From positions 310,001 through 374,000 of the forward strand of contig JBODTK010000119.1 in the NCBI GenBank assembly GCA_050613775.1: DNA of 64,000 nucleotides, given 5' to 3'. This document shows positions 1 through 53,886 of the stretch, one piece after another. The notes beneath the pieces were generated by a model that saw only the letters and a program-made list of their open reading frames with translations, did not search any database and was not told the DNA's origin. Both the position numbers and the translations under genes were made by a program. Position 1 is the first letter of the stretch. Each line of letters opens with the position of its first letter. This DNA is from Neocallimastix sp. 'constans' (taxonomy: Eukaryota).

Positions 1-1253
1 ATCATGTCGGAATCAGCAATATCATTATCTCTTGTCATATTATAGATTCTCGTTAAGGTATCCTGAATAAACTCGATCATAATTGCACCGTTTTTAAACG
101 AACGAATATTATTGGCAATGTTCAATTTTTCTTTTAATTCTTTTTTAGCTTCATCGCCGGGAAGCCAGAAAATGTTCATTTCATCCCCATCAAAATCGGC
201 TTGGAAAACGCTAGCAATGAGTGGATTGATTTGAATGGTACGACAATTACATGGACAAGAACGAACTGCCAGTAACGAGGTAGCTTGCAATGTCGGTTGT
301 CGATTAATAATAACAAAATCATAAGGTTTATATCCAAATGGAATCAGTTGGTCAGTGAATTCCTTAGGAATTAAAACCGTATCCAGTGGAGTATCAATAT
401 TTGGTACGATGACACTCCGAAGACAAAAGTTTTGTCGTTTTGCCAAACACATACCTCTAAAGATTCCTGTTTTTCCTGATAACATTTGTTTAATATAGAT
501 TTTTTCTGAATCTTCTGCCGTATCGGTTTATACCATGAATTCCTAGAATTTTTCGAAATAAATTAAATGCTCTTAAGACATAGGTCGATTGCATAATGTA
601 AAAATTTTCATTTCGATACTGATAATTCAAATCTAACAATCTAATGTAGAGAGTGGTAAGATTATTATGAATAGTAATATTACTAGAATCTTTTATAGAT
701 GATCGTAAATTAATTGGTAATACTTGGATATTCTTTATAAATGCCTTTTTCATTTTCTTTTGCATCGATGTATCATCCGTAAAATCTGATAAACAAATCA
801 ACTCGTACAATTCATCAATAGTTAATTTTTGATTCCCAAAAGAAAATCCATATTCTGAATACGTTTTCTTATCATTCTTTTTCTAACTTCTTATTTTAAT
901 TTCCGAACTATTTGCTACGCTTTTCTTCTGAATGAAAACGAAGTATGAATTATTCGCTTTTTACAACAAACGGACTTTGTATTATTTAATTTTTTATATT
1001 TGTTACATACAGGGCAAATATGCGTAATTTCTTTGCATAGGGTACTTGCAAATAATGGATGTACAATTCTATATTAAATTGTTATTCTTCCTAAATGTCC
1101 TGGACATTCCATAATTTTCTTACATTGTTTACAAGGTAATTATGGTTCCAATGTATATGCAGTAGTATTATTCACTAATTCATGAATTTCGGATATTAAG
1201 ACAGAATTATTTTCCAAATCTTTATTGTCATATAATTCAAACTTAAGATGCAT
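1..1253 (-). pseudogene. DNA-directed RNA polymerase largest subunit (beta'/RPB1-type), compact and divergent, disrupted; runs off the left window edge
   Basis: Manual minus-strand translation from ATG at 1253 gives MHLKFELY...LEP*LPCKQCKKIMECPGHLGRITI*YRIVHPLF...ICPVC (clamp Zn motif), FIKNIQVLPINLRS...NNLTTLY (ORF 490..810), then LSGKTGIFRGMCLAKRQNFCLRSVIVPNIDTPLDTVLIP...VIINRQPTL...TIQINPLIASVFQADFDGDEMNIF (catalytic motif at 177-203) ...NIRSFKNG...FIQDTL. In-frame stops at 1140-1142, 1074-1076 and 883-885; frameshifts near 960 and 530; no introns seen. Confidence 0.93.
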
Positions 1254-1389
1254 TTTTTTTTATCTAATAAATCAATAATTTTTAATTTACTTTGCTTAAG
1301 ACAAAATATTAAAAGAAAATCATTTTATCATTTTACTTTTATTATTTCAAAAGGTATTATTTACAAATCTTGATCTATTTAAAGTTTTA

Positions 1390-1761
1390 AAATAATATAG
1401 AAGCACTCTTCTGGTATCTTAGATTCTCCGATTATATTGGCTTATTGTGATTACTCTATCTATTCTCTGTGGGATATTCCTTACACTCATAATGGACATT
1501 TCCACTTGAAATTCGATAACATGCACTTTATCATGCTTTCTGATGATGAATCGCTAGTTTTGGGTGAATGTGGTGATAATAGTACTATTACTATTCTATC
1601 GTGATGGTAATTTCATTAAATTACCAATTTATACGGACAAGTGTGTTGGTTTGGTAGATACTTACACTTTAGGTTTAACTGAATGTAATGAATTTGACAT
1701 TAATCAAATCTTCTACTTCAATCTCTGGATTGATGAACCTCTTGAACCTATTGATAACTAA
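1390..1761 (+). pseudogene. Ricin-B (beta-trefoil)-like domain fragment, frameshifted
   Basis: Joined frames read ...SPIILAYCDYSIYSLWDIP...LVLGECGDNS/FYRDGNFIKLPIYTDKCVGLVDTYTLGLTECNEFDINQIF. The Cys/Trp spacing resembles the ricin-like module at 2940-3340; no intact start. Confidence 0.5.
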
Positions 1762-2686
1762 AGCAAATCTAGTCAATAAATAAATTAAACTAACAATATA
1801 ATAAATAAAACAAAAAAAAATAGTAAAATAAAATAAAAATTATTATAAATAAACAAAAAAAATAGATAATAAAGAATTATAGTAAAATAAAAGGTAAAAT
1901 AAAAGTTTAGAATAAAGAAATATAATATTATCTAAGTATTAAATATAAAATATATTAAATATTATTATATTTTTTTAAAAGTTTATTCAACTACCTAATC
2001 GTAATACTCAAAGTGTTTCTCATTTTGAATATAATAAGAATATATATTTGTTTTTTATAATCATAATATTAATAATAATTATATGATAAAACTTTGAATT
2101 CTATCCATTCAAGCTTATACACAAATAGATAAATATGATAAAATTATATAAATGTTTTAACAGCATCTAATGAAACATAGATTTTTTTAAAATAAATAAA
2201 TTAAACATCATCATAAAAATAATTTGATTGATATATCAAATATAATATAATCATCAATAATCAATATTATATGGATTATTACAATAAGCCAAAGTATATT
2301 TTAAATTCTTCTATCTGTTGAATATACATATATTTTTAACTTTCTTAATTATTATTTTATATTAGTATATATATCAATTAACGTATTTAAATTATGATAT
2401 GGATTAATAAAATTTATATTTAATCCTATATCTTTGCTTTCCTATTATTAATTTTAATTTTAAATTATCCTTATATATTTGTTTTTGATATATCTATTTG
2501 AATTTATTATACATGTAAAATAAAACAAAAAATAATAAATAAAAACATTTAACTTTATTTAAAAATTATGATTAATATAATACGAATTAAACATTTATTT
2601 TATTATTATTAATTTTTTTTAATTTATTAATTTTATAATTAATAAATTTAATTTATATTAATTAAACTTAGTATATAATAATTTTA

Positions 2687-5600
2687 TCAAAAACTGTTAT
2701 GCGTAACCAAATATTTGTTGTTTTTAGTAAAGTGTATACAATTATTACTTGCTGAGTTGTACAAGTAATAAGTTTCAGTGTTGATAGTTGGAGTAAGTGT
2801 ATGGACAGTGGTTTCAGAGCCGAGTATACCACACCATTCATTATTTTCAATACCCCAATGACCAAACTCATCGGTAGTAACAACAGCAGCGTTTGAATCA
2901 GAGCAACATGGATAACCTAAAGCTTCAGAGAAGCAAACAGTGATTGGAGTTAGATTATGATCCCAGTTGAAGAACTTTTCATCATCATTTTTAGCACATG
3001 CATTTAAGTTTATTTTTATTTCATTGTTGTACATATCATTCACATCTAAGAAACCAATACATTTATAAGTTGAACCAATTAATTCGAAGAAACCATCATC
3101 AGTGTGTTCTAATTTGGCTTGCTCATCACATTTACCCAATTCAAGTGAGCCTGTATCAACATTAGAAACACGCAAACAATAATTAGGTTGAGCCATAGAA
3201 TAGAAGTAACCTTTACGAGAAGGTAATACTATCCACTTGGAATAATCAGTATCATCACAAGGTTTAACTGTAATTGAATTGTTTGGCTCTTATGGTGCAT
3301 ATAAACACTTGTTGGTAAAAGCATGATAGAACCAATAGACGGTATGACCACTCTTGATAGTAGGGGTGGCTTTACTACTAGTAGAAACTGTAGAACTTAC
3401 AGTTGTAGTAGTTGTATTAACAGTTGTGGTTGGTTCGCTGGATTTTGGAGTAGATGTCGAACCAGATATAAGACACCATTCATCATTTTCAACTCCCCAA
3501 GTACCTATTTCATCCGTGTATGGAACTTCAATTATTTCTGGAGAACAACATGGATAATCGTCTACTGGACAATCAGATGTTGAAGTATTATCTGGAGAAT
3601 TTTTTGGAAGATCATTGTTTCTGTCTGGATTATATGAATCAGTTTCTTTACGAGTAATAACACCACCATCTATATCTTGAATTTCCCATTGGAAAGACTG
3701 ATCATTTTTATCATAAGTTTCTTCGAAATTAAGTGTTTTGTTACTTAAACAATTATATTTCTGATTTCTATTATTCTTAAAGCATAGATAATTATCTTCT
3801 ACAAATTCAAAATGCATATAACGATCTTTAATATTCATAACATTTTCACAAACTTCTGAACCTGAGGTACATGCATTAGCTGCATATAAACATTTTCCAT
3901 TCTTATCAGATGTAATTCTCTTGTTGTTATATTCATCAACATTAGTAACATGCCATAAACTATGATTTGAAGTGGTACATTCTCATAAATCAATTAAGTT
4001 ACCATCACTGTTATTAACTAATATACATTATTTAGTTTTAACATTACGGATTCTGAAAAGAATTACTCTGTTCATTTCACCGATACCACATAATTCTCCA
4101 TCTTCTTGGCCCCATTTTCCATATGAATCTTCTTTGATTACCTTTGGATTAATAGATGAGCAACAATGATATCCTAAAACTTCAAATGAGCATCTTTCAT
4201 ATCCAATACCACGCCATTCTCCATTTTCTTTAGCCCAGTTAACCTATTTCATCAACTTTTTCAACTTTAACATATTGATTACGACAACATTTATATCCAG
4301 CTTTAAGATAGTTTGAGGAGCAAGTCAAGTGTTCATATCTGGATGATTATATAATTGTAGGACTACGTGAACAAATTTGTTTATTCCTGAAACTAAATTG
4401 ATGATTTGAATTATTATTACAATAATTCATGAATAATTTATTATTAGAATAAGTTAAACATTTGGCATCATAGGATGATATGATATTGTAAAAATTACCT
4501 TTGGATATTATACGCCATTTATTCTTTTTGTTGTTGACACATTTATAGTCATATTTAATCATTTCTTCTTCATGTCCTTGTTGGTTAATTATTATTCTAC
4601 GTTGTAAACATGCATTTTCTGTTGATGTAATATAATAATCGAAATCTGTATATGCAACAAAACCATCTATTTGAATAACATCGCTGGATTCGCTTCGTTT
4701 AGTTTTTGAAGATGTATTTAAGGTAGATTTACACTATCACGTATTTTACGTACTAAATCGTTAGTAGGGAAATCTAGAACAAACCAGTGATTATAAAGTA
4801 TTTTATTATTATCAAGATATTTTGATAAATTATTGTTCATTGCTTCTGCCTCAGCAGCTACTCCCATAAAATTAGCAGCTCCTTGTATATTCATAAAATC
4901 AATAGTGAGAACATCCGTGTTAGTTGAATCATAAAAAGAATTAGTTAAACTAGAATATGGTGAATATTTAGTATTTTGACTTACAATTGGGATTTCGTGG
5001 TTTAGGAATTCTTCAACAAGTTCCCATTTTCCTTGTCCTAAATTGTAATTATCTTGTACAAGTTTCTGCAGTATCAGATACATGAGGGCAGCATTCCTTT
5101 AAATAACTTTGATCCTTCACTGGATAGATAGTACAACTACCCAGCTACATGACCTATCAGCTTACTAATTATTTCATTTATTTCATTCTTAGTTTTATAA
5201 TACCATTTCTTATGTGCTAACAAAACTATCTTACCTCGAACATTTTTAAGTATAGGATATATTTCTTCACCAGTATAGAAAAATTATTTGTATTTTTTAT
5301 CATATTATGCTGCCTCTTTTAATACACTACTATTAGCTATTGCTTGGATCAAATCAGCTATAGTGTCGAACCCTCCGGGAATATTTACTTTTATAGCGTC
5401 ATCCTTTAAATGCGTAATAACAGTTTCTTTTTCGTAAAGATGTAAAAAATCAATAGCTTCATTAAATACATCGCTTAAATAATATTTCTTTCCTGTATTT
5501 CTATTCATACAATCCAGTAAGATATATCTCCTTTTTTTGATACTCGGAATTGTTGTTTGGTAGTGAGGTGTTAATGTTTATTGGAATTTCGATAAATGGG

Positions 5601-5815
5601 AACTTAATTTCTTTATCGGCTTTAAAACAGTATAAGCCTTTACATAAACTCGCCCGACAAAATTCGCATTCTTCAATGGAATTAGTAGTTGTTTTTACGT
5701 GGTAGCCAAATTCGTAAGGAAGATCATCTGATTCAACGTCATATACCTTAAAGTAACCTCACTGAAAATATAATGCAAAAAATATATATATTACTAAAAC
5801 AAAGCAAAGGGACAT
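2687..5815 (-). pseudogene. Secreted PI-PLC X-domain protein with ricin-B-like domains and three fungal dockerins (CBM10), fragmented
   Basis: Signal-peptide-like MSLCFVLVIYIFFALYF from ATG 5815. PI-PLC X motifs LSDVFNEAIDFL..EKETVITHLKD, YPILKNVRGKIV, VQDNYNL..KWELV, WFVLDFP. Dockerins CSFEVLGYHCC..GKWGQEDGELCGI (~4085-4195), YPCC..WGVENDEWCLI and [22 protein letters not shown] alternate with KCL..C..W ricin-like repeats. Multiple stops and frameshifts split it over the ORF-track pieces. Confidence 0.8.
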
Positions 5816-6685
5816 TGCAGTTACTTATAAAGTTTTATATATTTAAATTGTAATATGGTTATTATGTATTTGTTTAATGTTGTTCAAATATTTATATATA
5901 ATTTTATTGTATTTTTATTTATATATATTTATTTTTAATATAATATTACAAATCAATTTATTTATACTATAGTATTATATTCTGAGTTATATATAATTAT
6001 ATTTTAAATTTAATATCTATATTTATTTAATTTTAGTTTTTTGTATATTATTATATTATACAAGTTTATCTGTGCAAATAGACATAGTTGTAAAATATTT
6101 ATAGACACTGTATATTTAAATTTTTACGTAATAAAATATAAAATATCTACTTAACAAATTAATAAGTCAGTACATATTGAAATTAATAATATATTATTTA
6201 TATTATTTATTTTGTAAATATAAAATAGTAGAATATGTCATTTTTTATTTTAAAAAAAAAAAAAAAAAAAATTAAATTAATTTGATTTTTAGAATATGTC
6301 TAAAAAAAAATACTGTAATATATTATATTACTTAAATTACTTATAATTAATGTATATTTTAAATATAATTTAACAATTATTAGATATAATAAAATATATT
6401 GTACTATGAAATATATTATATTAAATAATATATATTAAATTATTTTTTATAATTTATTATAAATTAAATATTATAAATACTAATTTAATTTAATATTTTA
6501 CAGATTAGGTTAAAATATTTTAAAGTATAAATATAAATAAGAATTTTTCACAAAAAATTATATTAAATTTATATTTAATTAAATATTTTAATAATTTTCA
6601 ATTTTCCACATTTATATTGCTTATACAAGTAAAAAACTTATAACCTAACTAGGCGTGTTAGATTTGATATAATATAAAAAGAGTA

Positions 6686-7159
6686 ATGAATTTTGCTGTT
6701 GTAGCTCCATTAGGGATAAAAATTTGTACAATGAGTCCTGAATCTGTATTGTCTGAAACAAAAATATACGACTGGAACAAAATAGCGATTATGTCACCAT
6801 TAATGGAAGAGCTGGAGGCAAAGGATTCTTCAACGTATGCATTTAGTGATAAATCTAAAGCAAATTTCGCCCTTGTTGAGTTGAGTGCTATAAATGGAGG
6901 AACTATTTCTCAGTACTGCATGTATGATGCTTTAATAGATTTAGCCAGAAGAAGTACTAATGAAGTTCGACGAGCATATAATAGACAAGCTATATATTTC
7001 CTTATCCTTTCTGCTTGCAAAGGAGGATTTTGGAAAAGTGAAGAAGACCTGGAGTTCTATCTGCGCGAATCAGGAACTGGAATAACGAAGGAAGAAATAG
7101 ATGTTAACAAATGTGGACCCATTGTTGAGCAAATAGTCACATATCTCTCAGGTGCGTAA
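6686..7159 (+). CDS. Hypothetical 157-aa protein, intronless
   Basis: Clean ATG..TAA ORF, markedly more GC-rich than its flanks, ordinary globular composition; no motif recognised. Confidence 0.6.
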   Translation: MNFAVVAPLGIKICTMSPESVLSETKIYDWNKIAIMSPLMEELEAKDSSTYAFSDKSKANFALVELSAINGGTISQYCMYDALIDLARRSTNEVRRAYNRQAIYFLILSACKGGFWKSEEDLEFYLRESGTGITKEEIDVNKCGPIVEQIVTYLSGA

Positions 7160-7989
7160 TATTAAGCTACTGTGCCTGACATGTTGTGTCAATACCAATG
7201 ACTTGTAATACATTGAAAACTAATAAAAGATATATATATATATTTCATAAAGATAAATTATTTAAAGTTAATATCTAAGTCTTTTCAATATTAATACTGT
7301 TATATATTTTTATTTTTATTAATAAAGTGTTACTAGTACCTAATTATTCTGAATTAAGATATTACATTGTGGCTTGTTGTTCATTTTATATATAATATGA
7401 TTCAATGCATTATAAGCTTATTTTTCATATATATCATCTATTCTAACAAATTTTTATATGTATAAAAAAAATTTAATAAAAAATTTTTATTTATTTTTAG
7501 TTCATTATATTCAATTATTAAAATATATTATTTATATTTATAAAATTAATACTATATATTATGTATTGCATTATTAACACATAATTTATAAGTTATAATC
7601 TATATCAATTCTCTTTCTATATCAATTTTACTTATATTAATATTCTTTTTTTTTTTTAATATAAATAGTTGTAATATAATATATAATTATTTTATTGTAT
7701 ATATTAAATTAATTTTTTATATTAAAAGTTTATTATTTAAATTAAAAAAATGAATAGATAAATAAATATAGATGTATAATTTAAGTATAAACATTTTAAA
7801 TAACTGTGAAATTGATTGGTTAATTATAAAATTTTTTTATTGTAAATTTTACAAAGAAATTATTTGCTAAAAAAAATAAATTTAAGATTTTTGGACATGA
7901 AAATTATTTGTTAAAAATAACAAATTCAAAATTTTTGGACATGAAAATTACTTGCTAAAAAAAAAAATTTAAAATTTTTGGACATACAT

Positions 7990-8210
7990 ATAATAATAAA
8001 TAATAAATAATAAATAATAAATTATAAATAATAAATAATAAATAATAAATAATAAATAATAAATAATAAATAATAAATAATAAATAATAAATAATAAATA
8101 ATAAATAATAAATAATAAATAATAAATAATAAATAATAAATAATAAATAATAAATAATAAATAATAAATAATAAATAATAAATAATAAATAATAAATAAT
8201 AATAATAAAT
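7990..8210. repeat. Heptamer tandem repeat (AATAATA)n
   Basis: About 30 near-perfect copies read directly. Confidence 0.95.
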
Positions 8211-9862
8211 ATTTATTATCTAATAATATAATTACTATTTATTTTTATAAATATATGTTGTAATGAAATTTTATTATGAATATATTTTCTTTTTATAAAG
8301 AGAAGTAAAACAAATGTCATTATATGTAAAATCATAATTGATAGATAATAAATTGTAAACAATAATATAATAAAAATGCAACTACTACTAATACAACTAA
8401 TAATAATAAAAATAAAAATAAAACAGTTATTATACTGCTAATAATATAACTAATAACAATATAATAATTAATAATAAATAATAAAAGTTTTAATAATAAA
8501 AATAATAAAAATAGTGAAAAATCTATAAAATCAGTTAAGAAATAACATAAATAACATAAATGTATACAAATGTTGCTAATACATTAACCACATAAAAAAA
8601 AGTTTTATAGGTTATTAAAGTTTTAAAAGTTTTCTATTCTTGCCAATGATATAATTTATTTTAATAAATATAAATATATTATTCTCTTTATTGAAAACTT
8701 AAATATTGTTTAAACTATTAGTATATATTAAATTTTTGATAATAAATATTAATAATATTTTCTTTCCTTGTCTAAAATAAAAAAAAAATAAATATTAATA
8801 TATTATTTTATAATATATAAGCTAATAAATTAAAGTTTAAACAATATTAAAGGAAAAATGATGAAATTATTTTATTAATTTAATAAAAAATTATTCCCTT
8901 TTTTTTTCTTATAAAATATAAAATTATTATATAATAAAAAAAATGATATTATATAGTTTATATCTATTTGGAACCATTACTTCTTTTTTTTTTTTTTTTT
9001 AAATTAATACAAAAGGGATTTTTTTTTTTTTTTTTTTTAAATCTAATAATAAAATTAATTCATAAAGATATTCTTTATATATTTTAATAATTTATTTTTC
9101 TTTTCATTACATTCTATGTCTTATGTACCATATTTTTGAATATAATATTATAGATAATATCAATTTAACAAATTATTAAACCAGTTCTTGAATTAAATAA
9201 TAAATTTATTCATATATTTTATTTTGAAAATAAAAAAAAGTAGAATCAATTTTTTTTTTTATAATTTATATTTTTTTATTTATAAGTATGTATTTAAAAA
9301 AAAAAAAAGATAAAATGATTTGATTTTTATTACTATTTGAATAATCTAAAAATTCTTAAAATTTAAAAAATATAATATATATATTGTATACTATATAATA
9401 TATATTATGTAACTTTAATTATTTATAATTAAAATATATGCTTTATATTTATTATACAATATATTTTTTATATTTGTAATATATTATATCTAATAACTAA
9501 TATAAATTTGAATTTAATAATTATTTGATATAAAAAATATATTGTACTATAGAATAAATTGTATTAAATAATATATATACATGTAATTTTTGATTGAATA
9601 GGATATATTGTTTTTTTTATAAAATAATAAATTATATAAATAATATTTTTTTATAATTTATTATAATAAAAAATATATTTTAACCTAATCTATAAAATAT
9701 TAAATAAAGTATAAATACTTTAGTTTTTCACATAATTTTATACAATCATATTATATTTAATTAAATATTAAAAATTTCTATAATTATAAATAATTTTAAA
9801 TAGTTCGTAGTTTTTAAATGTTATAGTTATAATATTAAAAAAATAATTTTTTTAATTAAAAA

Positions 9863-11590
9863 ATGGATATTAATGAAGAAATTTTTACAAAATTATCATC
9901 ATACTATGAAGATCAAGGGGATTTTCAAATAATGTGTAGTTCTTGTTCTACTGTTATGGAAAAGAAAAAAGTAATAAGCCGAAGTAAGAATGAAAAATAT
10001 GTAGATAAGCTAAGGGATTTATTACGAGAGCTGAATAAATTTAAATTTGATAAAGTTAGAGAGAATTCAAAATCGAAGTATATAAAGCGAATTTTGTATA
10101 AGGATAATGAATCAAATGAAGGAAGAATCACAAAAATATTTAATTTAAGTAGACGACTTAGTAAGGATAGCAAATTATATGTAGCAATGACGACAATAGG
10201 AAATAAAAATGATAAAACAACTGAAGATATATTAAAAAAAATTAAAGAAGGAGGAGACATAAGCAAAAGTTTTGATTTGAAAAGAATATGTACATTAGGG
10301 GAAGAAACAAAGTTTAATATTACCTTAAATCTAAATAATAAGTTCCATAAGTATTTATATCATTTCATAATTGTGGAAGGAGATAATGTAATGATTGGGG
10401 ATTTATTTTCATTTATAAGTCAGAAACAAATGATAAAAAGAGATTTTTTACAAAAGAAGTATATGGAATATAAGGAAGGCAAGAAGAATGATGTTTATTA
10501 TTACTATAGAATTCTATACAATACTGAATTGAATGATTTTAATGATCAATTTGTCAGTTGTATAAATTTTTATTGTAGTAATGAAAAAAATAATGCATTT
10601 AAAGAAGTTAAATCTAAAAATATAAATAGAAATAATGAATTGGAAGAAGCTGAATATATAATTGGAAATGATGATTTATTGATGGGGGTTGATGAAATAT
10701 ATTCATCACCTGAAACTGAATACCAAAGTGAAAGTTGCGGTTCAATAATAGAAGATAAAATATTTTTATCTCCTGGAATGATAGATGATAGCTCAATACT
10801 GAAAGAAAGTAGTTCATATCAATATTTAAAAAATGCATATCCTTCACAGGATATCATGGAGGAAAAATATTTATCACCATTGTTACCAGAAGTTCAATAT
10901 GAATCATCAATGAAAGATGATTTATATTTATCCTCTATGTCATCGTTCGGTTATTCTCAGAATAACAATGATATCAACGTGAAAGGTCAAAATGAAAGTA
11001 TATTTGATGGTCCTATGTTTGTAGGTGAAATAAAGTGTAAATTGAATAAAGAGATATTGAATCTTGGAGGAATATATTTGGAGAATAATGAATATAATAT
11101 TAAATCTTATAATAATGATATAGTTGGTAAAATAGTGACTATTGATAGTACTGATTGTATAGTAACAACAAAAATAGTGACCTGTAATGGCAGTTGTTAT
11201 TTAATACCAACTAATATTGTCGGTAGAATTGTTTTAAATGGAAAAAAGGCATTTCTTTTGGACGTTAAAGATAATATAATTGGTGAATTTTATTCATCTA
11301 ATGATAATCTTAATCTCTATTTGAGTGATATGAACAATTTGTTGGTAGGCAATTTAATTGAAAATGTGAATGTACCTCTATATCTTGACAGCTTAAAAAA
11401 TGATAGTAATCTTTATTTAAGAAATATGAATTATATATTAGCGGAATATTTGGAGGATAATGTAAATGTACCAGTATCTTTAGTGGATTACATTAGTAAT
11501 CCTTACTTAAGAGAAACGAACAATTTATTTGAAAAACAATTAATGGCAAATATGAATGCAAATTTATATTTAGATAACATTAATAATTAG
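9863..11590 (+). CDS. Hypothetical 575-aa protein, intronless, with a Lys-rich N-terminal half and short C-terminal repeats
   Basis: 1.7-kb uninterrupted ORF in very AT-rich DNA; CxxC near the N-terminus; C-terminal NLYL..MN..L...L.xNVNVP repeated about three times. Confidence 0.75.
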   Translation: MDINEEIFTKLSSYYEDQGDFQIMCSSCSTVMEKKKVISRSKNEKYVDKLRDLLRELNKFKFDKVRENSKSKYIKRILYKDNESNEGRITKIFNLSRRLSKDSKLYVAMTTIGNKNDKTTEDILKKIKEGGDISKSFDLKRICTLGEETKFNITLNLNNKFHKYLYHFIIVEGDNVMIGDLFSFISQKQMIKRDFLQKKYMEYKEGKKNDVYYYYRILYNTELNDFNDQFVSCINFYCSNEKNNAFKEVKSKNINRNNELEEAEYIIGNDDLLMGVDEIYSSPETEYQSESCGSIIEDKIFLSPGMIDDSSILKESSSYQYLKNAYPSQDIMEEKYLSPLLPEVQYESSMKDDLYLSSMSSFGYSQNNNDINVKGQNESIFDGPMFVGEIKCKLNKEILNLGGIYLENNEYNIKSYNNDIVGKIVTIDSTDCIVTTKIVTCNGSCYLIPTNIVGRIVLNGKKAFLLDVKDNIIGEFYSSNDNLNLYLSDMNNLLVGNLIENVNVPLYLDSLKNDSNLYLRNMNYILAEYLEDNVNVPVSLVDYISNPYLRETNNLFEKQLMANMNANLYLDNINN

Positions 11591-12359
11591 CCGAATGAAA
11601 TTAACTATTTATATTCATTAAATTATGTATGATATATATAATTGAATGGATTTTAAGTTGAATTGTAAAAAAATTCAAGTATTATAAATATTATATTCTG
11701 GAAAGGTTTAATTATTATGGTTTGTTTAGTTTAATGTATATATAAGTATATATATATTAGACAATCAAAACTTAATTAATTAAAAGACAGAGTGTATTAT
11801 TTTATACTTTGTAATTTTTTAACATTTTGGATAATAAGAATGTATAAATTATAATATTTTAGTTTATCAATATTTAATATTTTATTATATATTTTAGTTT
11901 ATTTGTATAATTAATTTTAAGATTTCTATTTAAAATGTGTTTTACATATATATATACATTTTTTATATATTTAATTGAAATAAAAAATAGGATGTAATAT
12001 TAATTAATTAAATAATAATTAGTTAAATAAAATGAAAATTTTAAAAAATTGAATTGTGTATTTAATATATATATATATATATTTTAATTATTTAAATTTT
12101 TATATAATAATTTAATTTATGTATTAAAAATTATGAATTTACTATAGATATAAATAATATTTAAAATAAATATTCATATTTAATTAAATACTAAAATAAT
12201 CCTAACTGGTTGGTATTGCATCTAAAATCTCACCAAAACACTTAGGTGTTGTTAATAATAGTATTAGTATTGATAGTGAGAATAGGAATATTAATATTAG
12301 TGATAGTGAAAATAATTTTTTTTTTTTTTTTTATTTCTTATTTATAAATCTATTCCTCT

Positions 12360-13530
12360 CTCATTGAAGAAATATGCTTTTAATTTCCTTTATTCTTAGT
12401 CTCGTTTTATATTATACTCCTCTCTTTGGTTCAAATAAAAACAGGTGCTCTAAAGATCAAAAAATTATTAATAGGGGACTATATTGGAGTTATGGATTTA
12501 AATCCCATAATTTTTATGTTAGTCTCTACGATATTACTCGTGAATTGAGAATACCTCCTCTTTCAGCTATCTGTGCTCTATTTCAATTACGATGCGGATG
12601 CTATAGAAAATAGAAAAAACTCATCACGTATTATTAATTATCTCACTAATAATATTCCTACTATGTCGCATTACTCATGGACTAAAGAATCAAGGACTTT
12701 GGATAAGAAATTAAATGGTAAAAAATCAAGTGAAATAAAAAAGTTTTATTGGGAATGAGATGTCTTCAAACCCTCAAAAGATAAAAAAGCAATTATTTAC
12801 AAGGAGAATGATTTTGAATTTATTTCAGAAATCAAAAACTTAACATTTCAATATCCTAAGTATCAATTAGGATTCTTTTGGATTTCTCGAATTAGGAGCG
12901 GTTTTAAATTTGACATTAAGTATTTCCATTAAAAGAAAAATCGTCTCAGAAGATTGCCCTAAATGTTACCCATGTTGTGGTGTTAGTGTACCGGTAAAGA
13001 ATTGGGAAAATTACAGAAATAAACCTTTACCTTTTCTAGATAATCTCTTTTTGAAGTTTGTAATGATAATTGAACAAAAATCCTTGGATGATTCTTTAGA
13101 TTCAGAAAAGGATTATGATAAAAATATTTATTATTTTATATTGAGTGCTCTTCTTAGCGAGCATTCAATATATTCAAAAATTAAAGTTAATGATGGGGAA
13201 CAAAGAAAATTAGTTGACAATATTTTTAAACAAAGTTCAACTTCGTCGACTGTTCCGCATTTTGTGGGGATTGAGGAGTTTCTAACAAACGTAATATCAT
13301 TAATTTGTCGATCTTTCAGATTGATGATGAAATAGTATTCCGTTGAATCTACCGTTGCTAAGAGCGTTGACGTCAAAATAATAAGGTATGGATTTTCACC
13401 TCCTGGTGAAAGATCTGATACAGATTCGTTTGACAAACACTAATACTGAAATTATTACTCGTAATAATGGCTTGGTGTTATCATCGATGAATGGGAAAAG
13501 TTAGAAACTATTGCTTCTAATACATTTTTA
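12360..13530 (+). mobile_element. 5'-truncated, degraded non-LTR retrotransposon (LINE) ORF2 C-terminal region
   Basis: Fragmented frames ...SLYDITRELRIPPLSAICA...YSWTKESRTLDKK...LGFFWISRIRSGFKFD...EDCPKCYPCCG resemble the post-RT region and Cys-rich C-terminal knuckle of LINE ORF2; stops and frameshifts throughout. The RT core is not present. Confidence 0.6.
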
Positions 13531-14200
13531 TAATTATATAATATATTATATTTCATTTCATGTATTTTATTTTTTTATTTTTCATTTAAATCATGTAATG
13601 TTATTATTATTATAAATTAAATAAAGTTATTATCGAAGTCTAAAAAAAAAGAAATCTTAACTTTTTTTTTTTTTTTTTATTTTTAATAATTTAATTAAAT
13701 TTACAAGATTATATATTTAAATAATCAAAATAATCAAAAAAAAAAAAAAAAAAAAATTTATTTATTTTAAAACAATAACTTTAATTAACAAAATCTTTGA
13801 AAATATCATTTTATTTTTAAATATTTCTTTAATAATTTATATTTTATATTTATTATATATATTTAATAGTATAAATTTAGCTTTTTATTTATAAATTTTT
13901 TTTTTTTTTTTTCAAATAGTTTATATAGTTAATAGTTTACTGATAAATTTTACTTTTTATTTATAAAAAATTTTTTCAAATGGTTTATATAGTTATTGTT
14001 AAATTTAATTTAAATGAATGTATACAATTAATAAAAAACTTCTTTTTTCTTATTAAATTAAATTAAATAAGTTTTTAATTATGAAATTGTTAAAAATATT
14101 ATTTTTCTTCGATCAAATATTTTTTTTTTCTTCCTATTTATTTAAAATAGTTTTAATTGAATTATCTAGAAAGTTTAATATTTAATTAACATAATAAGTT

Positions 14201-16170
14201 TCAGGTGCTCCAAGAATAACTTTCTGGCAATTTATAGTTTTCAGGACGAATAATTATTTTTTCAAGAACAATATTTGGTGTTACTAGATAAAATTTAAAA
14301 GTATTTAATCCCATCTTACATTCAAAATTAACTGTGGAAATTCTAATTTCATTGGTAACATCATTATTCCATAGTTGTTTAGTATCTCTAACTGCGAATG
14401 TTTTACTATCAACAACATCATGAATAATAATTTTACCATTAACTTCTACTACAAATTGTAATTTATTATTCATAAATGCTGGATTAGATAGATTTTGATA
14501 GAAATCAAATGACCATTTTCCTCCTTCATTAAGAATAAAGTCATATTCAACATATGATGCTTCATTAATATCATCATATACGTTAATAACTGGATATGAT
14601 TTAATTGCGCTTAAAGTTTTTCCATATCCTTCAATGACCTTGCATGAACTATTAGTACCATTCTTTTGAGAAATGAAATGTTCCGCTTCAATACTAATAT
14701 AAGATGTGGTTTGAACAAAGAGCTAACATTCTTTGAACTGACATGATATCCTCATTAATATATTCCTTAATTAGTCGATTTTGAGTCGTTAAAACATCAC
14801 GAAGTAATTGAATATTTTCTGCAAAAGTGTCATCACCAGCAATAGCTGTATCTGCTTCACCACGCATACCAACTATAATAACATTATCAAATTTACCACT
14901 ACGTTTTAAACCATCTTCCCAGAATTTAGTTATACTTTGCTCATTTGTACGGAAATTCCATGCATCTCCATAAATAAAATCTTTACCAAGAAGATTCTTA
15001 TATTCTTCTCCTGCACGACAACATGGTTCGTAATGACTTGTTCCCATAACAACTCCAAGCTCATCAGCAAGTTCAGCATTAGCTAATATTGGTCCATTAT
15101 CACTAAATATTCCTGACCACATCACTGGCCACATATAATTTCCCTTAAGACGAATAAGAAGTTCAAAAACATGAATATACATCTTAACATTGAATCCACC
15201 ATAATTATGGAATGTCCAATTACCAAATTTTGGCCATTCATCATTAATAAATAAACCATGATAACGAACACTTGGTTCCTTTGAAATCATATTATCTTCT
15301 TCATTAATTTCATTTAAATCTTTGTGAACTAAAAGACCATAAATTGTACCTCGTTTATCACTACCAATAAAATATAATTTATTACCAAGAACTCTAAAAG
15401 ATATAACATTCATATTTATCTTTAATTGGTGAACTATTAATTTCATTAAATAAATTTGATTTTCCAATAGTACCGAAAATAATAGCAGTTTCTTCAGCAG
15501 TTTCTTCAGCAATGGTAATAATAATAGAATAATTAAATTCTGGTAAAGCACCGGTAGCAAGTTTAGCATCATTTCTAACCATATCGACAATTTTCTTTAC
15601 ACCTGAAAATTCATTTTCTTCACAATAAAAAGAAATACTTGATTTATCATCTTTACTGAAAATCTTGAATAAACCAGTAGAAATGGTTGAAGTAGAAATT
15701 AAGGATTCAGTTTCAATTTCTGTTTTAGTTTCAGTTTCAGTAACTTCAATATTAATAGATTTAGTTTCAATAGTTTCTGTTATAGATATTTCAATTTTTT
15801 GAAGTTTCAATTTCAGAATTTTTAGCTATAGTAATTATTTTAGTTTTAGTTTTAGTTTTAGTTTTGGTTTTAGTTCTGGTTTTAGTAGTTGTTTTTTCTT
15901 TAGATTTTTCATCCTTCATTTTCACATTTATATGGAATAGAACACCATTTTCCATTTTCATAACCCAAAGCTTTACCAGATTTAGTAAATTTTTTAACTT
16001 TATAAGTTTTACTACAACATTTATATTTACCATAATCTGGACAACGTTGACGATCAGTAATACCATACCATCTTCCATGTTCATATCCATATTCTTTTCC
16101 AGAATCTGAAACACGCTTTACTTTTGTTCTTTTTCTCTCACAACATGGATAACCTTCAGCTAAGGACCAT
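14201..16170 (-). pseudogene. GH115 alpha-glucuronidase with N-terminal double fungal dockerin and Thr/Lys/Glu linker, disrupted
   Basis: GSDKRGTIYG, PSVRYHGLFINDEWP, GGFN..MY.HVFELLIRLKGNYMWP.MW, GVVMGTSHYEPCCR, VGMRGEAD are GH115 motifs. N-terminus WSLAEGYPCC..YGYEHGRWYGI / YKCC..GYENGKWCSI is two dockerins. Frameshifts, and an abrupt jump from QRMLAL to the C-terminal ISIEAEHF domain near 14700. Confidence 0.9.
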
Positions 16171-23680: not shown

Positions 23681-25403
23681 ATGTTCAAGAGATTTGGTTT
23701 ATCATTATTAATTGCTGCTGGTAAAATATAAAATAAATTAAATTATTTTTAAAGAATAAATATATATTTATATTTATTTTTTTTTTTGTTTTTGTTATAG
23801 TTTTATAAATATTTATATTAAGATATCGTATTTGTTTTATAATTATTTATAATAAGATAAATATAAAATATTATTATAATATGAAAATTAGTAAATGATT
23901 AAATTTTTTTTTAAATGAAAAATTTATAGAAAATACTTAAAAATAGAATAAAGCATAAAATAAATAATATATTTGTTATAATTGTGATATTAAGATTATA
24001 CGATATTGAAAAATAATAAATTATTTAGAATTCAAAAAATTTTCTAAAAATAAAGGGCAAAAATTAAAATAACAAATTATGAAATATATAAAAAAAATTA
24101 ATAATAAGAAATTTTTTATGTAATATATGAAATAATGTATAGTAATTTGAAATTAATTGCTTTGTTAATAATTAAATTTATGTAGCCATGGTTTCTGGTG
24201 CCGCTATTAAATCAGCTGGTTCTGCTGATGCTGCTGCCGCTGGTACAGCTGCTGCCGATACTACTGCCGCAGCTACTGGTGCCACAGCTGCTGGTGCCAC
24301 AACAGCTGCTGCTGCTGCTCCATACACTCCAAAAATTAGTGAAGCTGAATTAGCTACAGCTCAAAGAGCAAAGGTTTACACTCAATGTCAACAACCAGGA
24401 CAAATCGCTTTAACTTGTAAGTTTTTTTTTTTAAAAGAAAAAAAAAAAACATTATTAAAAAAAAAATGCTATTATTAAATTTTAAATATCTATTATTTTT
24501 AGAATAAAAAAATTTTTTTAAAAAAAATTTGCTTTATTAAGTTATTTAATACATTTCTGAATAATATTATTAATAGTTGATGATGGACCAAACCCAGAGA
24601 CCACACCAATTGTTTTGCAATACTTAAAATCTAAGAATCTTCATGCTACTTTCTTCGTTAATGGTATTAACTGGAGTGATCTTGAAAAACAACCAGAAGC
24701 AGCTGAAGTTTTAAAACAAATCAAACAAGAAGGATTTGATATTGGTTCTCACACATATTATCATAAGGATTTATTCGAAGCTATTGACGAAGGTACCATG
24801 GAGCAAAATGTTGATAAAATGACTGATAAAATTGTTGAAATAACAGGTGTAAAGCCAGCTTTCTTCAGACCACCATGTGGTAATGGTGGTTATCCAGATA
24901 CCCCAGATACTCAAGTTAAGAATGAAAGGGTTCAAAAGTACTTAGGTGCTTCTGGATATAGTGTCATTATGTGGGGTGCTGATACTAGAGATTGGGAATT
25001 TAAAGAAAACATTGATGCTGAAATTGCTGAATTAAATAAGGACTTAAAAAAACAAGGTGCTTCACCACAAACCAGTAGTTTCATTATTTTAATGCACGAT
25101 GTTCACCCAACTACTGCTAATTTAGTTCTTCCAAAGGTTGTTGACTATGTTACTGGTCTTGGTTACAAGATTGTTCCACTTACTGAATGTATTGGTGTTC
25201 AATCTGCCTACCAAGTTGAAGGTAATAGTGGATTAGTTAGTAACTTAAATGCTTCTACTACTAACTCAACCATTGGTGCTGCCGCTTCTTCAACACAATC
25301 TAGTCAAACTGGAGAACTCACAAGGTCTTCTGCTTCCGCTGTCGAAGTTAAAATGGTTTACTCTGTTCTTGCTATTATTCTCTCATTCTTCTTTTTATTT
25401 TAA
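23681..25403 (+). CDS. Polysaccharide (chitin) deacetylase, CE4/NodB domain, secreted, probably GPI-anchored; exons 23681-23720, 24186-24416, 24577-25403
   Basis: GT-AG splicing restores the signal peptide MFKRFGLSLLIAAA and motif TFDDGP; also HTYYH, FRPPCG, DTRDW, LMHDVH, an Ala/Thr linker and a Ser/Thr-rich plus hydrophobic C-terminus. Confidence 0.93.
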
Positions 25404-28335: not shown

Positions 28336-29154
28336 ATGGGTATTAAAGTATCTTTTTCCAGAATAAATAAACAATTTCAAAATGACGTTTCAAGATTAAT
28401 CACTGATAATCAATTACCAGTTCAAAATGAAGTTTTTTCGGAAAACGAATTCTCACACTTGCCTTCAACCATTCAAAAATATATAAAAAACTGTGGGTAT
28501 ATTGGAACTCCTAAGATGTCCTATCTTACTATGGAGTATCACAAAGTAGATTTTGCTCAAAGTAAGAAAGGACCAAATTTGAAAATTAATTATACCCAAT
28601 TTAATTTTATAAAAGAACCATGCCGTATGGCCTTTATTGATAGTAGTATGTTTGGCATTCCTTTTGAAGGATATGATTACTATGAAAATGGTATTGGTGG
28701 TATGAAAGGTGTCATTGCAAAAATAATAACCCTATTCGACCAAAAAGGGGAAGAAATGGATAAGGCTTGTTTAGCAACTTTTTTGGCAGAATGTTTCTTT
28801 GCCCCAACCATTTTATTACAAAAATATATTAAATTTGAAGAAATAAATGATTTCCAAGTTCGTGGAACCATTAAATTCCATGAACAAACAGCTACGGGTA
28901 TCTTCACTTTTAATGAACAGTATGAAATGATTTCCTTTACCACCAAAGATAGAGCAGCAACGTCAGGTGATGGTAAAATAGAATATATAGCATGGTCGGC
29001 TCTTTGTAGTAATTATCAAGTGGGAGAAAACGGTATTAAATATCCTACTAAATTTCAAGCCGTCTGGAATTATCCTGAAACAGATGGAGGTGATTTTATT
29101 TATTTTGATGGAGCTATCAGTAAAATATTATACGGCTTTGAACAAAAAAAATAA
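28336..29154 (+). CDS. DUF6544-like protein, intronless, bacterial-type
   Basis: 272-aa clean ORF; LPSTIQKYIKNCGYIGTP, FGIPFEGYDYY..G.G.MKG, LATFLAECFFAP..L, G.FTFNEQ.EM..F...R resemble my recollection of this bacterial family. Family call unverified. Confidence 0.7.
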   Translation: MGIKVSFSRINKQFQNDVSRLITDNQLPVQNEVFSENEFSHLPSTIQKYIKNCGYIGTPKMSYLTMEYHKVDFAQSKKGPNLKINYTQFNFIKEPCRMAFIDSSMFGIPFEGYDYYENGIGGMKGVIAKIITLFDQKGEEMDKACLATFLAECFFAPTILLQKYIKFEEINDFQVRGTIKFHEQTATGIFTFNEQYEMISFTTKDRAATSGDGKIEYIAWSALCSNYQVGENGIKYPTKFQAVWNYPETDGGDFIYFDGAISKILYGFEQKK

Positions 29155-32006: not shown

Positions 32007-34616
32007 TTAAATTAAATATTTTATTATATTTTTATTTCTACTATTACATGCATAAAATAATGGTGTTTTACCATAACAATTTTCAATATTTATATTAGCT
32101 CCAAGCTCAATTAAATATTTTATTACTTTTTCATTTCCACTTTTACATGCATAAAATAATGATGTCTCACCATTTTTGTTTTCTTTATTCACATCAGCTC
32201 CAAGTTCAATTAAATATTTTATTACAATTCCATTTTTATTTTCACACGCATTAATTAATGGTGTTTTACCAATATTATTATATTTATTTACATTGGCTCC
32301 AAGTTCAATTAAATATTTTATTACATTTTTATTTCCACTTTTACAGGCATAAAATAATGGTGTTTCACCGCTTTTGCTTTCTTTATTAACATCAGCTCCA
32401 AGTTCAATTAAATATTTTATTATATTTTCATTTCCACTTTTACAGGCATAAAATAAAGGTGTTTCACCATTCTTGTTTTCTTTATTAATATCAGCTCCAA
32501 GTTCAATTAAATATTTTATTATATTTTCATTTCCACTTTTACAGGCATAAAATAAAGGTGTTTCACCATTCTTGTTTTCTTTATTAATATCAGCTCCAAG
32601 TTCAATTAAATATTTTATTATATTTTCATTTCCTCTTTCACACGTATGAAATAATGCTGTCTTATGATAACGATTTTCTTTATTTATATTTGCTCCTAGT
32701 TCAACTAAATATTTTATTACATATTCATTTCCACTTTCACATGCATAAATTAATGGTGTTTTACCATTATTATTTTCTTTATTTACATCAGCTCCATGTT
32801 CAACTAAATATTTTATTATATTTCCATTTCTACTTTTACAAGCATAAAATAAAGGTGTTTCACCATTCTTGTTTTCTTTATTTATATCGGCTCCAAGTTC
32901 AATTAAATATTTAATTATATTTTCATTTCCTTTTTCACATGTACTAATTAATGGCGTTTTACCATTATTACTTTCTTTATTTATATCTGATCCATGCTCA
33001 ATTAAATATTTTATTATATTTTCATTTCCACTTTCACATGCATAAAATAATGGTGTTTCATGACGATAGTTTTCTTTATATATATCTGCTCCAAGTTCAA
33101 TTAAACATTTTACTATGTTTTTATTTCCACTTTTACATGCATAAAACAATGATGTTTCATCACAATAGTTTCCTTTATTTATATCTGCTCCAAGTTCAAT
33201 TAAATATTTTATGATATTTTCATTTCCACTTTCACATACATAAATTAATGGTGTTTTATCGAAATGATTTTCTTTATTTATATCGGCTCCTAATTCAGTT
33301 AAATATTTTATTATATTTAAATTTTCACTTTTACAAGCATAAATTAATGGTGTTTTACCATAACGATTTTCTTTATTTACATCAGCTCCGAGTTCAATTA
33401 AATATTTTATTATATTTTTATTTCCACTTTCACATGCATAAATTAATGGTGTTTTTCCATTGTTACTTTCTTTATTTATATCAGCTCCAAGTTCAATTAA
33501 ATATTTTATTAGATTTTCAGTTCCACTTTCACATACATAAATTAATGGTGTTTTATGGTAACAGTCCTCCTTATTTATATCAGCTCCATGTTCAACAAGA
33601 TATCTTATTACATATTCATTTCCATTTTTACATGCATAAAATAATGGTGTTTCACCAACATTATTTACTTTATTTACATCAGCTCTAAGTTCAATTAAAT
33701 ATTTTATTATATTTTCATTTCCACTTTCACATGCATAAAATAATGGTGTTTCATGACGACAATTTTCTTTACATATATCTGCTCCAAGTTCAATTAAATA
33801 TTTTACTATGTTTTTATTTCCACTTTTACATGCATAAAATAATGATGTTTCATCACAGTAATTCTCAATATTTATATCAGCTCCAAGTTTAATTAAATAT
33901 TTTATTATATTTTCACTTCCATTTTCACATGAATAAAATAATGGGGTATTTCCTTTTTTATTTCTTATATTTAAATTTACTCCATTTTTAATTAAATATT
34001 TTACTATATTTTCGCTTCCACTTTCACATGCATAAAATAACGGGGTTTTACAATCTACTTCATCTTTATTGATATTCGATCCATGCTCTTTTAAATATTT
34101 AAGTAAATGTATATTATCATCATGGCATACCTTAAATAAATATGGATTTTTAGATTTGTAATAAACTTTATCAAGTTTTGAAATACTATATTTTTTATTG
34201 GAAATTTGTTGATTTAAATAGATTAAAGGTATTATTGTTTGATTTCTATATTGAAAAAGTAGCCATTTAATGAATTCATTATCATAAAATTTAAAATTAT
34301 TAAAAATAATTTCTAATAGGTCATTATTATTATCTTTTATTAATGCTTTCATTAAAGAGGATGATATATATAAAGAATTGTTATAATTTTCAATAATAAA
34401 ACTTAGTTTCTCAGAAGTAAGCAATTTTTTATTATAAATTTCAAATACAATATCTCTTTTATTAATGCATTTGCTATTATCATTGTTCATAAAATTTGTT
34501 ATGGTATCAAGATTTCTAGTATCAATAGCTTTTATAAATAAATTCAGTTGAAAATCAACATTTGACTTTTTTATATCATACATATTTAATTTGTATTTAT
34601 TTTCTTGATAATTCAT
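32007..34616 (-). CDS. Ankyrin-repeat protein, about 21 tandem 33-aa repeats, intronless
   Basis: Repeated GETPLFYACKSGNENIIKYLIELGADINKE units; first ATG at 34616; ends mid-repeat. Confidence 0.92.
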   Translation of the reverse strand: MNYQENKYKLNMYDIKKSNVDFQLNLFIKAIDTRNLDTITNFMNNDNSKCINKRDIVFEIYNKKLLTSEKLSFIIENYNNSLYISSSLMKALIKDNNNDLLEIIFNNFKFYDNEFIKWLLFQYRNQTIIPLIYLNQQISNKKYSISKLDKVYYKSKNPYLFKVCHDDNIHLLKYLKEHGSNINKDEVDCKTPLFYACESGSENIVKYLIKNGVNLNIRNKKGNTPLFYSCENGSENIIKYLIKLGADINIENYCDETSLFYACKSGNKNIVKYLIELGADICKENCRHETPLFYACESGNENIIKYLIELRADVNKVNNVGETPLFYACKNGNEYVIRYLVEHGADINKEDCYHKTPLIYVCESGTENLIKYLIELGADINKESNNGKTPLIYACESGNKNIIKYLIELGADVNKENRYGKTPLIYACKSENLNIIKYLTELGADINKENHFDKTPLIYVCESGNENIIKYLIELGADINKGNYCDETSLFYACKSGNKNIVKCLIELGADIYKENYRHETPLFYACESGNENIIKYLIEHGSDINKESNNGKTPLISTCEKGNENIIKYLIELGADINKENKNGETPLFYACKSRNGNIIKYLVEHGADVNKENNNGKTPLIYACESGNEYVIKYLVELGANINKENRYHKTALFHTCERGNENIIKYLIELGADINKENKNGETPLFYACKSGNENIIKYLIELGADINKENKNGETPLFYACKSGNENIIKYLIELGADVNKESKSGETPLFYACKSGNKNVIKYLIELGANVNKYNNIGKTPLINACENKNGIVIKYLIELGADVNKENKNGETSLFYACKSGNEKVIKYLIELGANINIENCYGKTPLFYACNSRNKNIIKYLI

Positions 34617-34943
34617 TAGAAAATTCAAACAGTATAATTATTTGATAATCTATTCAAATTTAAAATTGTATATATATATATAGAGAGAGAAATTAACTGC
34701 TTTTAACAAAAAACTTACTATTTATTATAAATTATTATTTTTTTTTTTTTTTTTTTATTTTTTCATATTTTTTTTTAAGTGATTATGATTGATTGAATAA
34801 ATAAATAAATAAATTTTCTTTTCAATAATATATATACTAAAAAAAAAATTTATGTCCATAACTCAAATTTTTAGAAAAAATTAATAATCTAATTATATAT
34901 AGAAATATCATATACATAATTTGAATATTTTTACTTTAGTTCC

Positions 34944-53399: not shown

Positions 53400-53886
53400 G
53401 ATAAAAATATTAATAATAACAATAAAATTGTTATAATAGTAATAACAATAATATATAAAAGATTAAATAAATTATATGTTCAATTGTATTTATTATAGGA
53501 GAATTTTAAAATAAATTTCAAATAATTGAAAATAAACATTTTCAAATATTTTTAATAATTATTCTTTATAAATATTTATTTATTCTTTACAAATATTTAT
53601 TTATTCTTTATAAATATTTATTTATTTTTTATTAATATATATATATCATATATACATTCAACAAATTAAATCTTTGAATATTATAAAGGAAAAAAGTGGT
53701 TCCTTCATTTTGATTACATCCAAGAAGCTTAGGCTTTTATTATTTATATTAAAATTAATTATAGGTTTAAAATAATAAAAGATTTTTTTTTTTTTTTAAA
53801 AAAAAAAAAATTATATATAAATAATTATATATATAATAGAATATTTATTTTTAAATAAATTTAGAATTTCTTAATTTAATTTAATA

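What the first reader, a model, noticed from the sequence alone, without database searches (positions are those of the whole stretch)
1..1253. Hidden, minimal non-host RNA polymerase beta'-type gene: likely relic of an endogenised virus or linear plasmid
Seen: a near-complete N-terminal half of a multisubunit RNAP largest subunit (CxxC..CPGH clamp, GK.G.FR, RSVI, NRQPTL, ADFDGDEMN, QDTL), mostly missed by the ORF track. It is intronless and has QADFDGD instead of NADFDGD. Only ~17 residues separate VLIP from IINRQP. Known: cellular RPB1/RPA1/RPC1 carry NADFDGD and a much longer segment there; reduced two-barrel RNAPs occur in large DNA viruses and yeast cytoplasmic linear plasmids (pGKL2-type). 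Inference: this derives from a self-transcribing cytoplasmic element of anaerobic fungi, possibly an undescribed lineage.
Basis: partly seen in the sequence, partly recalled or inferred. Interest (0 to 1): 0.9.

Follow-up and report, generated by a model that had tools for sequence, protein, structure and literature searches.

The report
Decayed giant-virus polymerase in gut fungus
This is a broken copy of an RNA polymerase gene from a giant-virus-related DNA element already reported in anaerobic gut fungi in 2020; it and its intact sister copies lack the segment that likely recruits the start factor TFIIB, and the element may still be active.

Summary
Window 1253→1 (minus) is an intronless, decayed gene (3 stops, 2 frameshifts) for the first 417 residues of a 748-aa RNA polymerase largest-subunit half. 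It is 87–96% identical to an intact protein and belongs to a multicopy family in Neocallimastix, Piromyces, Anaeromyces and Orpinomyces. The lineage is not undescribed. Four family members lie on contigs whose species and exact length match those Gong, Zhang & Han (2020, PMC7017919) mapped as 'RP1n' of endogenous Pithovirus/Pimascovirales-related 'fundsalphaviruses'. My tree groups the family with iridoviruses; AU tests reject nesting in Pol II or Pol III. It is not pGKL2-type: it is a stand-alone A′-like half with clamp zinc sites. Additions I did not find in print: the short segment is loss of the whole TFIIB-docking domain, shared by a wider clade from chytrids, a moss assembly and metagenomes; Q in QADFDGD is family-wide; variants without the window's frameshifts occur at high contig depth in two DNA runs and in one RNA run; a broken phospholipase–lectin–dockerin gene next door is probably cargo. 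Whether the element is a capsid-less, still-amplifying element is open.

The parts
1..1253 (-). Decayed RP1n gene: N-terminal (A'-like) half of a split RNA polymerase largest subunit, codons 1-417 of a 748-aa protein; cut by the window edge
   Evidence: tblastn with P0001; Pfam; stops at 1142, 1076, 885; frameshifts near 932 and 527
1005..1133 (-). Clamp zinc-binding motifs CKQC, CPGH, CPVC
   Evidence: aligned to yeast RPB1 clamp cysteines
312..365 (-). 18-residue linker in place of yeast RPB1 about 375-437 (the dock domain; name recalled)
   Evidence: profile match stops at RPB1 374 and resumes at 438; 20 residues between anchor columns versus 71-92 in Pol II, Pol III and archaeal rows
174..203 (-). 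Catalytic motif QADFDGDEMN; three aspartates intact, Q for N is family-wide
   Evidence: 58 of 68 stored family proteins have QADFDGDE, 1 QGDFDGDE, 1 QASFERDE, 8 no match; none has N
1404..2730 (.). Segment inverted relative to related copies, with a 4-bp inverted microhomology at the two ends
   Evidence: opposite-strand joints 1403 to 2730/2734 in 3 of 4 runs laid, contig depth 351-362 in two; microhomology
1404..1760 (+). Displaced, frameshifted last repeat (ricin-type by eye) of the neighbouring cargo gene
   Evidence: frame read; no Pfam hit on its own; assignment inferred from the inversion joint
2731..5815 (-). Decayed gene for a likely secreted protein: bacterial-type PI-phospholipase C-like domain, ricin-type lectin repeats, CBM10 (fungal dockerin) repeats; probable cargo; start position approximate
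   Evidence: CBM_10 E 1e-15 and 2e-10, Ricin_B_lectin E 4e-4, below cut-off; 13 of 13 PDB hits are PI-PLC, best E 0.003; PI-PLC lies beside POL/RP1n or between POL and RPB2 in two published maps

Best explanation
This is a pseudogenised copy of RP1n, the N-terminal half of the split RNA polymerase largest subunit of the fundsalphavirus element, a likely Pimascovirales-related DNA element present in many copies in anaerobic gut fungi. Shown: the window copy is broken, and intact 712-776-aa sister proteins keep the clamp, the catalytic aspartates and the bridge helix but lack the dock segment. Inferred: in intact elements RP1n would pair with the separately encoded RP1c and RPB2 to form the element's own polymerase, with its own cap methyltransferase, D6/D11-like helicase, PolB, D5 primase-helicase and UDG. 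Without a dock it would start transcription without a TFIIB-type B-ribbon, most likely through the D6/D11-like helicase acting as an early-factor-type recruiter. This copy sits in host DNA, has decayed and carries an inversion that breaks its cargo gene. The helicase, RP1c and PolB are predicted to lie left of the window.
For: Family: 29 hits at E<=4e-46 and 62-96% identity, next hit E 5e-22; every named one is Neocallimastigomycota. All four are listed as fundsalphaviruses in the RPB1 tree. My tree (43 rows, 509 columns, C20 model): family 100/100, inside a 16-row dock-less clade 100/99, inside a 27-row clade with five named iridoviruses 100/100. AU tests reject family+Pol II (p 0.00015) and family+Pol III (p 0.00016). 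Top Foldseek viral hit is Pithovirus LCPAC104. A Neocallimastix lanati gene model of the window's subfamily runs from RP1n into a Helicase_C domain (P0283), as in the published gene order. dN/dS 0.17-0.32 among three long-ORF copies. Dock role: PMC10881513 and PMC7111264 passages.
Against: The DNA left of the window could not be read (no genome held), so the partner genes are not shown for this copy. The family sits on a long branch (1.77), so long-branch attraction is possible and the AU test shares it. My trees hold no named Pithovirus, Marseillevirus, poxvirus, asfarvirus or pGKL row and no Neocallimastigomycota host subunit; the one Pol I-like row is a poor, repeated sequence used only in the FastTree run. 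By plain sequence score against PDB the profile is closest to Pol II. Foldseek ranks 1-8 are nearly tied and include Imitervirales. The initiation mechanism is inference only.
Confidence: 0.92

Rival explanations
1. Decayed duplicate of a host Pol I, II or III largest subunit.
For: Best PDB sequence scores are Pol II, then archaeal A', Pol III, Pol I; best VIA structural matches are Pol IV and Pol II, tied with ASFV (Z 24.5-23.5). Pol I was poorly sampled in my trees.
Against: AU rejection for Pol II and Pol III; intronless, split after the bridge helix, dock-less; published linkage to PolB, D5 and RPB2; not joined to the Pol I-like row.
Confidence: 0.02
2. Relic of a pGKL2-type cytoplasmic linear plasmid (yeast virus-like element).
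For: Reduced, split polymerase; AT-rich; helicase and cap methyltransferase in the element; a zymocin-alpha-like GH18 gene beside one Zancudomyces copy in the published map.
Against: K2ORF6p joins beta and beta' regions, lacks almost the entire clamp and is placed near poxviruses. This gene has its own start and clamp motifs. The published element carries an NCLDV-type PolB and D5. No pGKL row was in my trees.
Confidence: 0.03
3. The breaks are assembly errors and this copy is intact, or the stretch is a contaminant.
For: The frameshift base at 527 is absent from the contig covering it in each of the 4 runs laid; no listed contig carries the window's exact version, and none spans the junction to host genes.
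Against: Three nonsense substitutions, an inversion with microhomology and many stops in the neighbouring gene; long host-type ORFs in the same window are open (1,924 aa, 876 aa); the family is on contigs of up to 829 kb-1.8 Mb in named Neocallimastix assemblies.
Confidence: 0.03

Closest known systems
Fundsalphavirus endogenous elements of Neocallimastigomycota (Gong, Zhang & Han 2020, PMC7017919)
   Same: Same gene (RP1n), same host phylum, same contigs for four relatives, same Pimascovirales affinity, PI-PLC/CBM10 gene nearby, copies with stops and frameshifts.
   Different: The text I read (abstract, introduction, results, methods, whole supplement text) does not mention dock loss, the Q-for-N motif, transcription, depth or cargo status; it labels the methyltransferase only as SAM.
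Pimascovirales (Pithoviridae-like, Iridoviridae, Marseilleviridae) RPB1
   Same: Grouped together in my tree; top Foldseek viral hit is a 905-aa Pithovirus subunit.
   Different: Iridovirus rows keep 62-131 residues at the dock position versus 20 here. Capsid and A32 hits from Neocallimastigomycota are absent from Gong's Figs S9-S10 leaf lists.
Yeast virus-like elements pGKL2 ORF6/ORF7 (PMC6211774)
   Same: Reduced, split two-barrel polymerase; a helicase is proposed to recruit it.
   Different: ORF6 holds beta and beta' regions in one chain and lacks most of the clamp; placed near poxviruses.
Mycodnaviridae (PMC13533422)
   Same: Nucleocytoviricota of zoosporic fungi, with endogenous forms.
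   Different: Related to Imitervirales/Algavirales and found through capsid genes; no mention of Neocallimastigomycota in main text or readable supplements (6 files unreadable).
Archaeal RNA polymerase subunit A' (Rpo1N)
   Same: Same split point after the bridge helix.
   Different: Only 21-35% identity; keeps the dock; far below NCBIfam cut-off (174 versus 819 bits).

Membership tests
Fundsalphavirus | RP1n homologous to the published copies | tested here: met
   Four family members share species and exact contig length with mapped RP1n contigs; window falls in that family 100/100 with P0022
Fundsalphavirus | RPB1 split into RP1n and RP1c | tested here: met
   Family proteins end after the bridge helix; RP1c itself not seen for this copy
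Fundsalphavirus | Groups with NCLDVs (Pimascovirales), not host polymerases | tested here: met
   long-branch caveat, thin Pol I sampling
Fundsalphavirus | Linked family B DNA polymerase (the paper's defining marker), D5, RPB2, helicase, methyltransferase | not testable with these tools
   Window ends inside the gene; no genome held. Helicase linkage seen only in a relative's gene model (P0283)
Nucleocytoviricota (virion-forming) | Major capsid protein and packaging ATPase | tested here: inconclusive
   None in the window ORFs scanned; none among 27 ORFs scanned from an incomplete 40-kb dock-less relative; no Neocallimastigomycota leaf in Gong Figs S9-S10; divergent capsids could be missed
pGKL2-type virus-like element | Beta and beta' regions in one chain, clamp mostly absent | tested here: not met
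   Own ATG at 1253, clamp zinc motifs present
pGKL2-type virus-like element | Protein-primed PolB, terminal inverted repeats (recalled) | not testable with these tools
   Element ends not in hand; repeat scan of 1-14000 showed nothing assignable
Host Pol II / Pol III largest subunit | Monophyly with RPB1 or RPC1; dock present; full length | tested here: not met
Host Pol I largest subunit | Monophyly with RPA1 | tested here: inconclusive
   One poor Pol I-like row, not joined in FastTree; Pol I ranks lowest among eukaryotic PDB hits

The most novel reading that the evidence does not exclude
Fundsalphaviruses of gut fungi are not fossils but a living, capsid-less, compact (roughly 20-40 kb) descendant of giant viruses that still copies itself, as new insertions or as free DNA. 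It transcribes and caps its own mRNA with a dock-less, TFIIB-independent polymerase and carries secreted cargo (phospholipase-lectin-dockerin, chitin-binding proteins). It would be a second route, independent of yeast killer plasmids, from a giant virus to a plasmid- or transposon-like life, in a clade reaching chytrids, moss-associated hosts and metagenomes.
Probability: 0.35. Interest if true: 0.78.

Novelty: new member of a known kind. Interest (0 to 1): 0.4.

Why it matters
The locus itself is one more broken copy of a published element, so it is not a discovery. The family is little studied: the name occurs in one paper of the library searched. Its intact copies offer a naturally minimal multisubunit polymerase without the TFIIB docking site, in culturable fungi. 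If the element is active and has no capsid, it is a tractable case of a giant virus turned mobile element, and a possible route by which lectin and dockerin genes spread in gut fungi.

Tried and rejected
No whole genome was held, and the 40-kb relative's record had no handle; I read it in overlapping loci instead. Among 159 viral loci, 152 measurable, only L011/L091 (one contig) was a short dock-less protein; three long proteins with short distances are probably a second motif match and were not followed up. The metagenome scan gave 4 loci of 1.9-2.6 kb with no neighbours. The prokaryote scan (5 of 64 parts) gave only archaeal A' at 21-35%. Pfam and NCBIfam gave no PI-PLC hit on the broken frames. 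The Atlas gave only weak scores (0.78-0.82) for ORF 6698-7156 and was unreachable for P0001. Egoviruses: no mention of fungi in passages searched. Two rows first labelled dock-less (P0328, P0331) have 66-74 residues there; P0328 falls outside the clade. Runs with a word share under 0.2 were not used. Read depth was not taken as copy number. Literature searches for later work; none showed a follow-up on these elements in gut fungi.

Full report
Observation. The 175-aa open piece 3-527 matches Pfam RNA_pol_Rpb1_2 (E 2.6e-20) and PDB largest subunits. An intact 748-aa relative, P0001, aligns colinearly over residues 1-417 at 87-96% identity. The window copy is therefore intronless and decayed, with stops at 1142, 1076 and 885 and frameshifts near 932 and 527. 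The host context is an AT-rich genome (17.8% GC) with CBM10 repeats, consistent with an anaerobic gut fungus.

The family. The fragment found 29 proteins at E<=4e-46 and 62-96% identity, then a gap to E 5e-22. All named ones come from Neocallimastix, Piromyces, Anaeromyces or Orpinomyces. Of 68 stored proteins with the family motifs, 41 are 712-776 aa; these include near-identical cluster members. One cluster lists 12 N. lanati accessions for 719-aa proteins among 15 members shown of 75; a protein almost identical to P0001 was seen on 9 contigs, the longest 829 kb. The family ends just after the bridge helix, like archaeal A'. An AlphaFold model of P0001 (pLDDT 76) matches Pol IV, Pol II and ASFV subunits about equally (Z 24.5-23.5, rmsd 5-7 A over about 560 residues).

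Identity with a published lineage. Gong, Zhang & Han 2020 (PMC7017919; I read text parts 1-2 of 3, from abstract to methods, and all 7 parts of the supplement as extracted text, not the figures) describe 'fundsalphaviruses': endogenous NCLDV-like elements close to Pithovirus, with PolB, D5, a D6/D11-like helicase, a SAM methyltransferase, RPB2, RPB5 and RPB1 split into RP1n and RP1c. They list 26 PolB copies in N. californiae. Four of my family members lie on contigs with the same species and exact length as contigs mapped there with RP1n (68,043; 168,386; 127,315; 246,453 bp), and those contigs are leaves of their RPB1 tree. In N. californiae the usual order is methyltransferase, UDG, RPB2, D5, DnaJ, PolB, RP1c, helicase, RP1n, chitin-binding gene. 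A N. lanati gene model of the window's own subfamily runs from RP1n into Helicase_C (P0283), so the helicase should lie left of the window.

My phylogeny. A FastTree of 80 rows and an IQ-TREE C20 tree of 43 of them (509 columns filled in at least 90% of rows, which drops the dock columns) agree. The family is one clade (100/100). It lies in a clade with 11 other dock-less proteins (100/99), and that lies in a clade with five named iridoviruses and environmental viral rows (100/100), apart from Pol II and Pol III. AU tests reject joining it to Pol II (p 0.00015) or Pol III (p 0.00016). Limits: a long stem (1.77); no named Pithovirus, pox, asfar or pGKL row; no host subunit; the single Pol I-like row left out of the careful tree; most Pol II/III labels come from recalled motifs, with P0051 checked against PDB. 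The top Foldseek viral hit is Pithovirus LCPAC104, nearly tied with other NCLDVs.

The short segment. The profile matches yeast RPB1 to residue 374 and again from 438. Between two anchor columns the family has 20 residues, against 71-92 in Pol II, Pol III and archaeal rows and 62-131 in iridoviruses. That stretch is the dock domain (name and limits recalled). [quoted passage not shown] I infer TFIIB-independent initiation, most likely through the element's D6/D11-like helicase, as proposed for yeast virus-like elements (PMC6211774, passages). The same loss (17-36 residues) marks 22 other proteins and one IMG/VR ORF. Named ones come from assemblies of Sphagnum troendelagicum, Boothiomyces, Geranomyces and Gaertneriomyces. 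One, P0133, fell among iridoviruses instead. Q replaces N in the catalytic motif throughout the family. The equivalent E. coli residue N458 touches the ribose, and N458S lowers selectivity less than 5-fold (PMC7862312, passages), so Q is likely tolerated.

Capping. The N. californiae methyltransferase P0297 is 37% identical over 114 residues to the C-terminal domain of a capping enzyme on the 40-kb dock-less relative (E 5e-23, pairwise). That contig (IMGVR_UViG_3300036715_003133) also holds RP1c next to PolB, D5, a flap nuclease, MutS, DUF2738, DUF5757, dUTPase and a GH18 chitinase. No capsid family was hit among 27 ORFs scanned, but RPB2 was not seen either, so the contig is incomplete.

Neighbour. 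Window 5815→2731 (minus) is a broken gene with CBM10 and ricin-type repeats and a PI-PLC-like part (13 of 13 PDB hits, best E 0.003). Contigs from 3 of 4 runs join 1403 to 2730/2734 on opposite strands, with a 4-bp inverted microhomology. So 1404-2730 is inverted in the window and carries the gene's last repeat. PI-PLC genes lie beside or inside two published copies, so it is probably cargo. In the two deep runs, summed depth over the PI-PLC part is several-fold lower than over RP1n, so not all copies carry a close version.

Signs of life, with limits. dN/dS is 0.17-0.32 among L007, L008 and L009, and 0.07-0.11 for the window piece against the four loci; synonymous sites are near saturation in most pairs, and the nearly identical pair L009-L010 gave 0.94. 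In DNA runs X8 and X4 one RP1n variant lacking the window's frameshifts has contig depth 358-451, against 22-90 for the other listed contigs; run X1 shows no such variant. X4 and X8 share contig lengths and may not be independent. Depth is not copy number, and collapsed nuclear copies explain it as well as free DNA. RNA run X13 holds a 1,267-nt contig over 1-922 (depth 21.5, no frameshift at 527) and contigs over the cargo gene, with zero depth at positions 1522, 1528 and 1622; DNA in the library is not excluded. Three assemblies of one distant relative's contig measure 24,739, 24,754 and 24,857 bp, which hints at a discrete unit. No Neocallimastigomycota leaf appears in Gong's capsid or A32 trees, but divergent capsids can be missed.

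Verdict. A real, decayed RP1n of a known but little-studied endogenous NCLDV-related element (0.92). The open and interesting question is whether the intact copies form a capsid-less, active element (0.35). Papers seen only as search listings were not used. Unreadable supplements of PMC13533422 (6 files) and subscription papers outside the library could hold related work.

Noticed in passing
window 6698-7156 (+): 153-aa ORF with no Pfam or NCBIfam hit; Atlas scores only 0.78-0.82 (primase C-terminal-like leads). A 37-nt, 92% inverted repeat pair at 6485-6521 and 9672-9708 brackets it. Relation to the element unknown.
   Followed up: partly
window 9863-11587 (+): 575-aa intronless ORF with no Pfam hit and no credible NCBIfam hit.
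   Followed up: partly
window 14201-15825 (-): Fragmented gene resembling a GH115 glycoside hydrolase (label recalled, not tested), next to a dockerin-like piece.
   Followed up: no
window 24176-25403 (+), 28336-29154 (+), 32007-34637 (-), 53875-60608 (+): Host-type genes: polysaccharide-deacetylase-like (recalled), a 272-aa intronless ORF, an 876-aa ankyrin-like repeat ORF and a long coiled-coil gene.
   Followed up: no
L011, L164, L165, L166 (one 40,098-bp IMG/VR contig): Dock-less relative with RP1c-PolB adjacency, D5, capping enzyme, MutS-HNH, flap nuclease, dUTPase, globin and GH18; no capsid or RPB2 seen; incomplete.
   Followed up: yes
P0134, P0135, P0165, P0139, P0131: Dock-less RP1n on contigs of 106,603 (Sphagnum), 105,589 (Gaertneriomyces), 106,157 (Geranomyces) and 60,751 bp (Boothiomyces), and three times about 24.8 kb; similar lengths may mark complete units.
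   Followed up: partly
P0030, P0031, P0036: Compact split subunits (739-747 aa) that keep a dock-length segment yet fell inside the dock-less clade in the FastTree run; placement unsure.
   Followed up: no
L008, L009: Metagenome-collection contigs that cover little more than the intact RP1n ORF, as transcript contigs would; library type unknown.
   Followed up: partly
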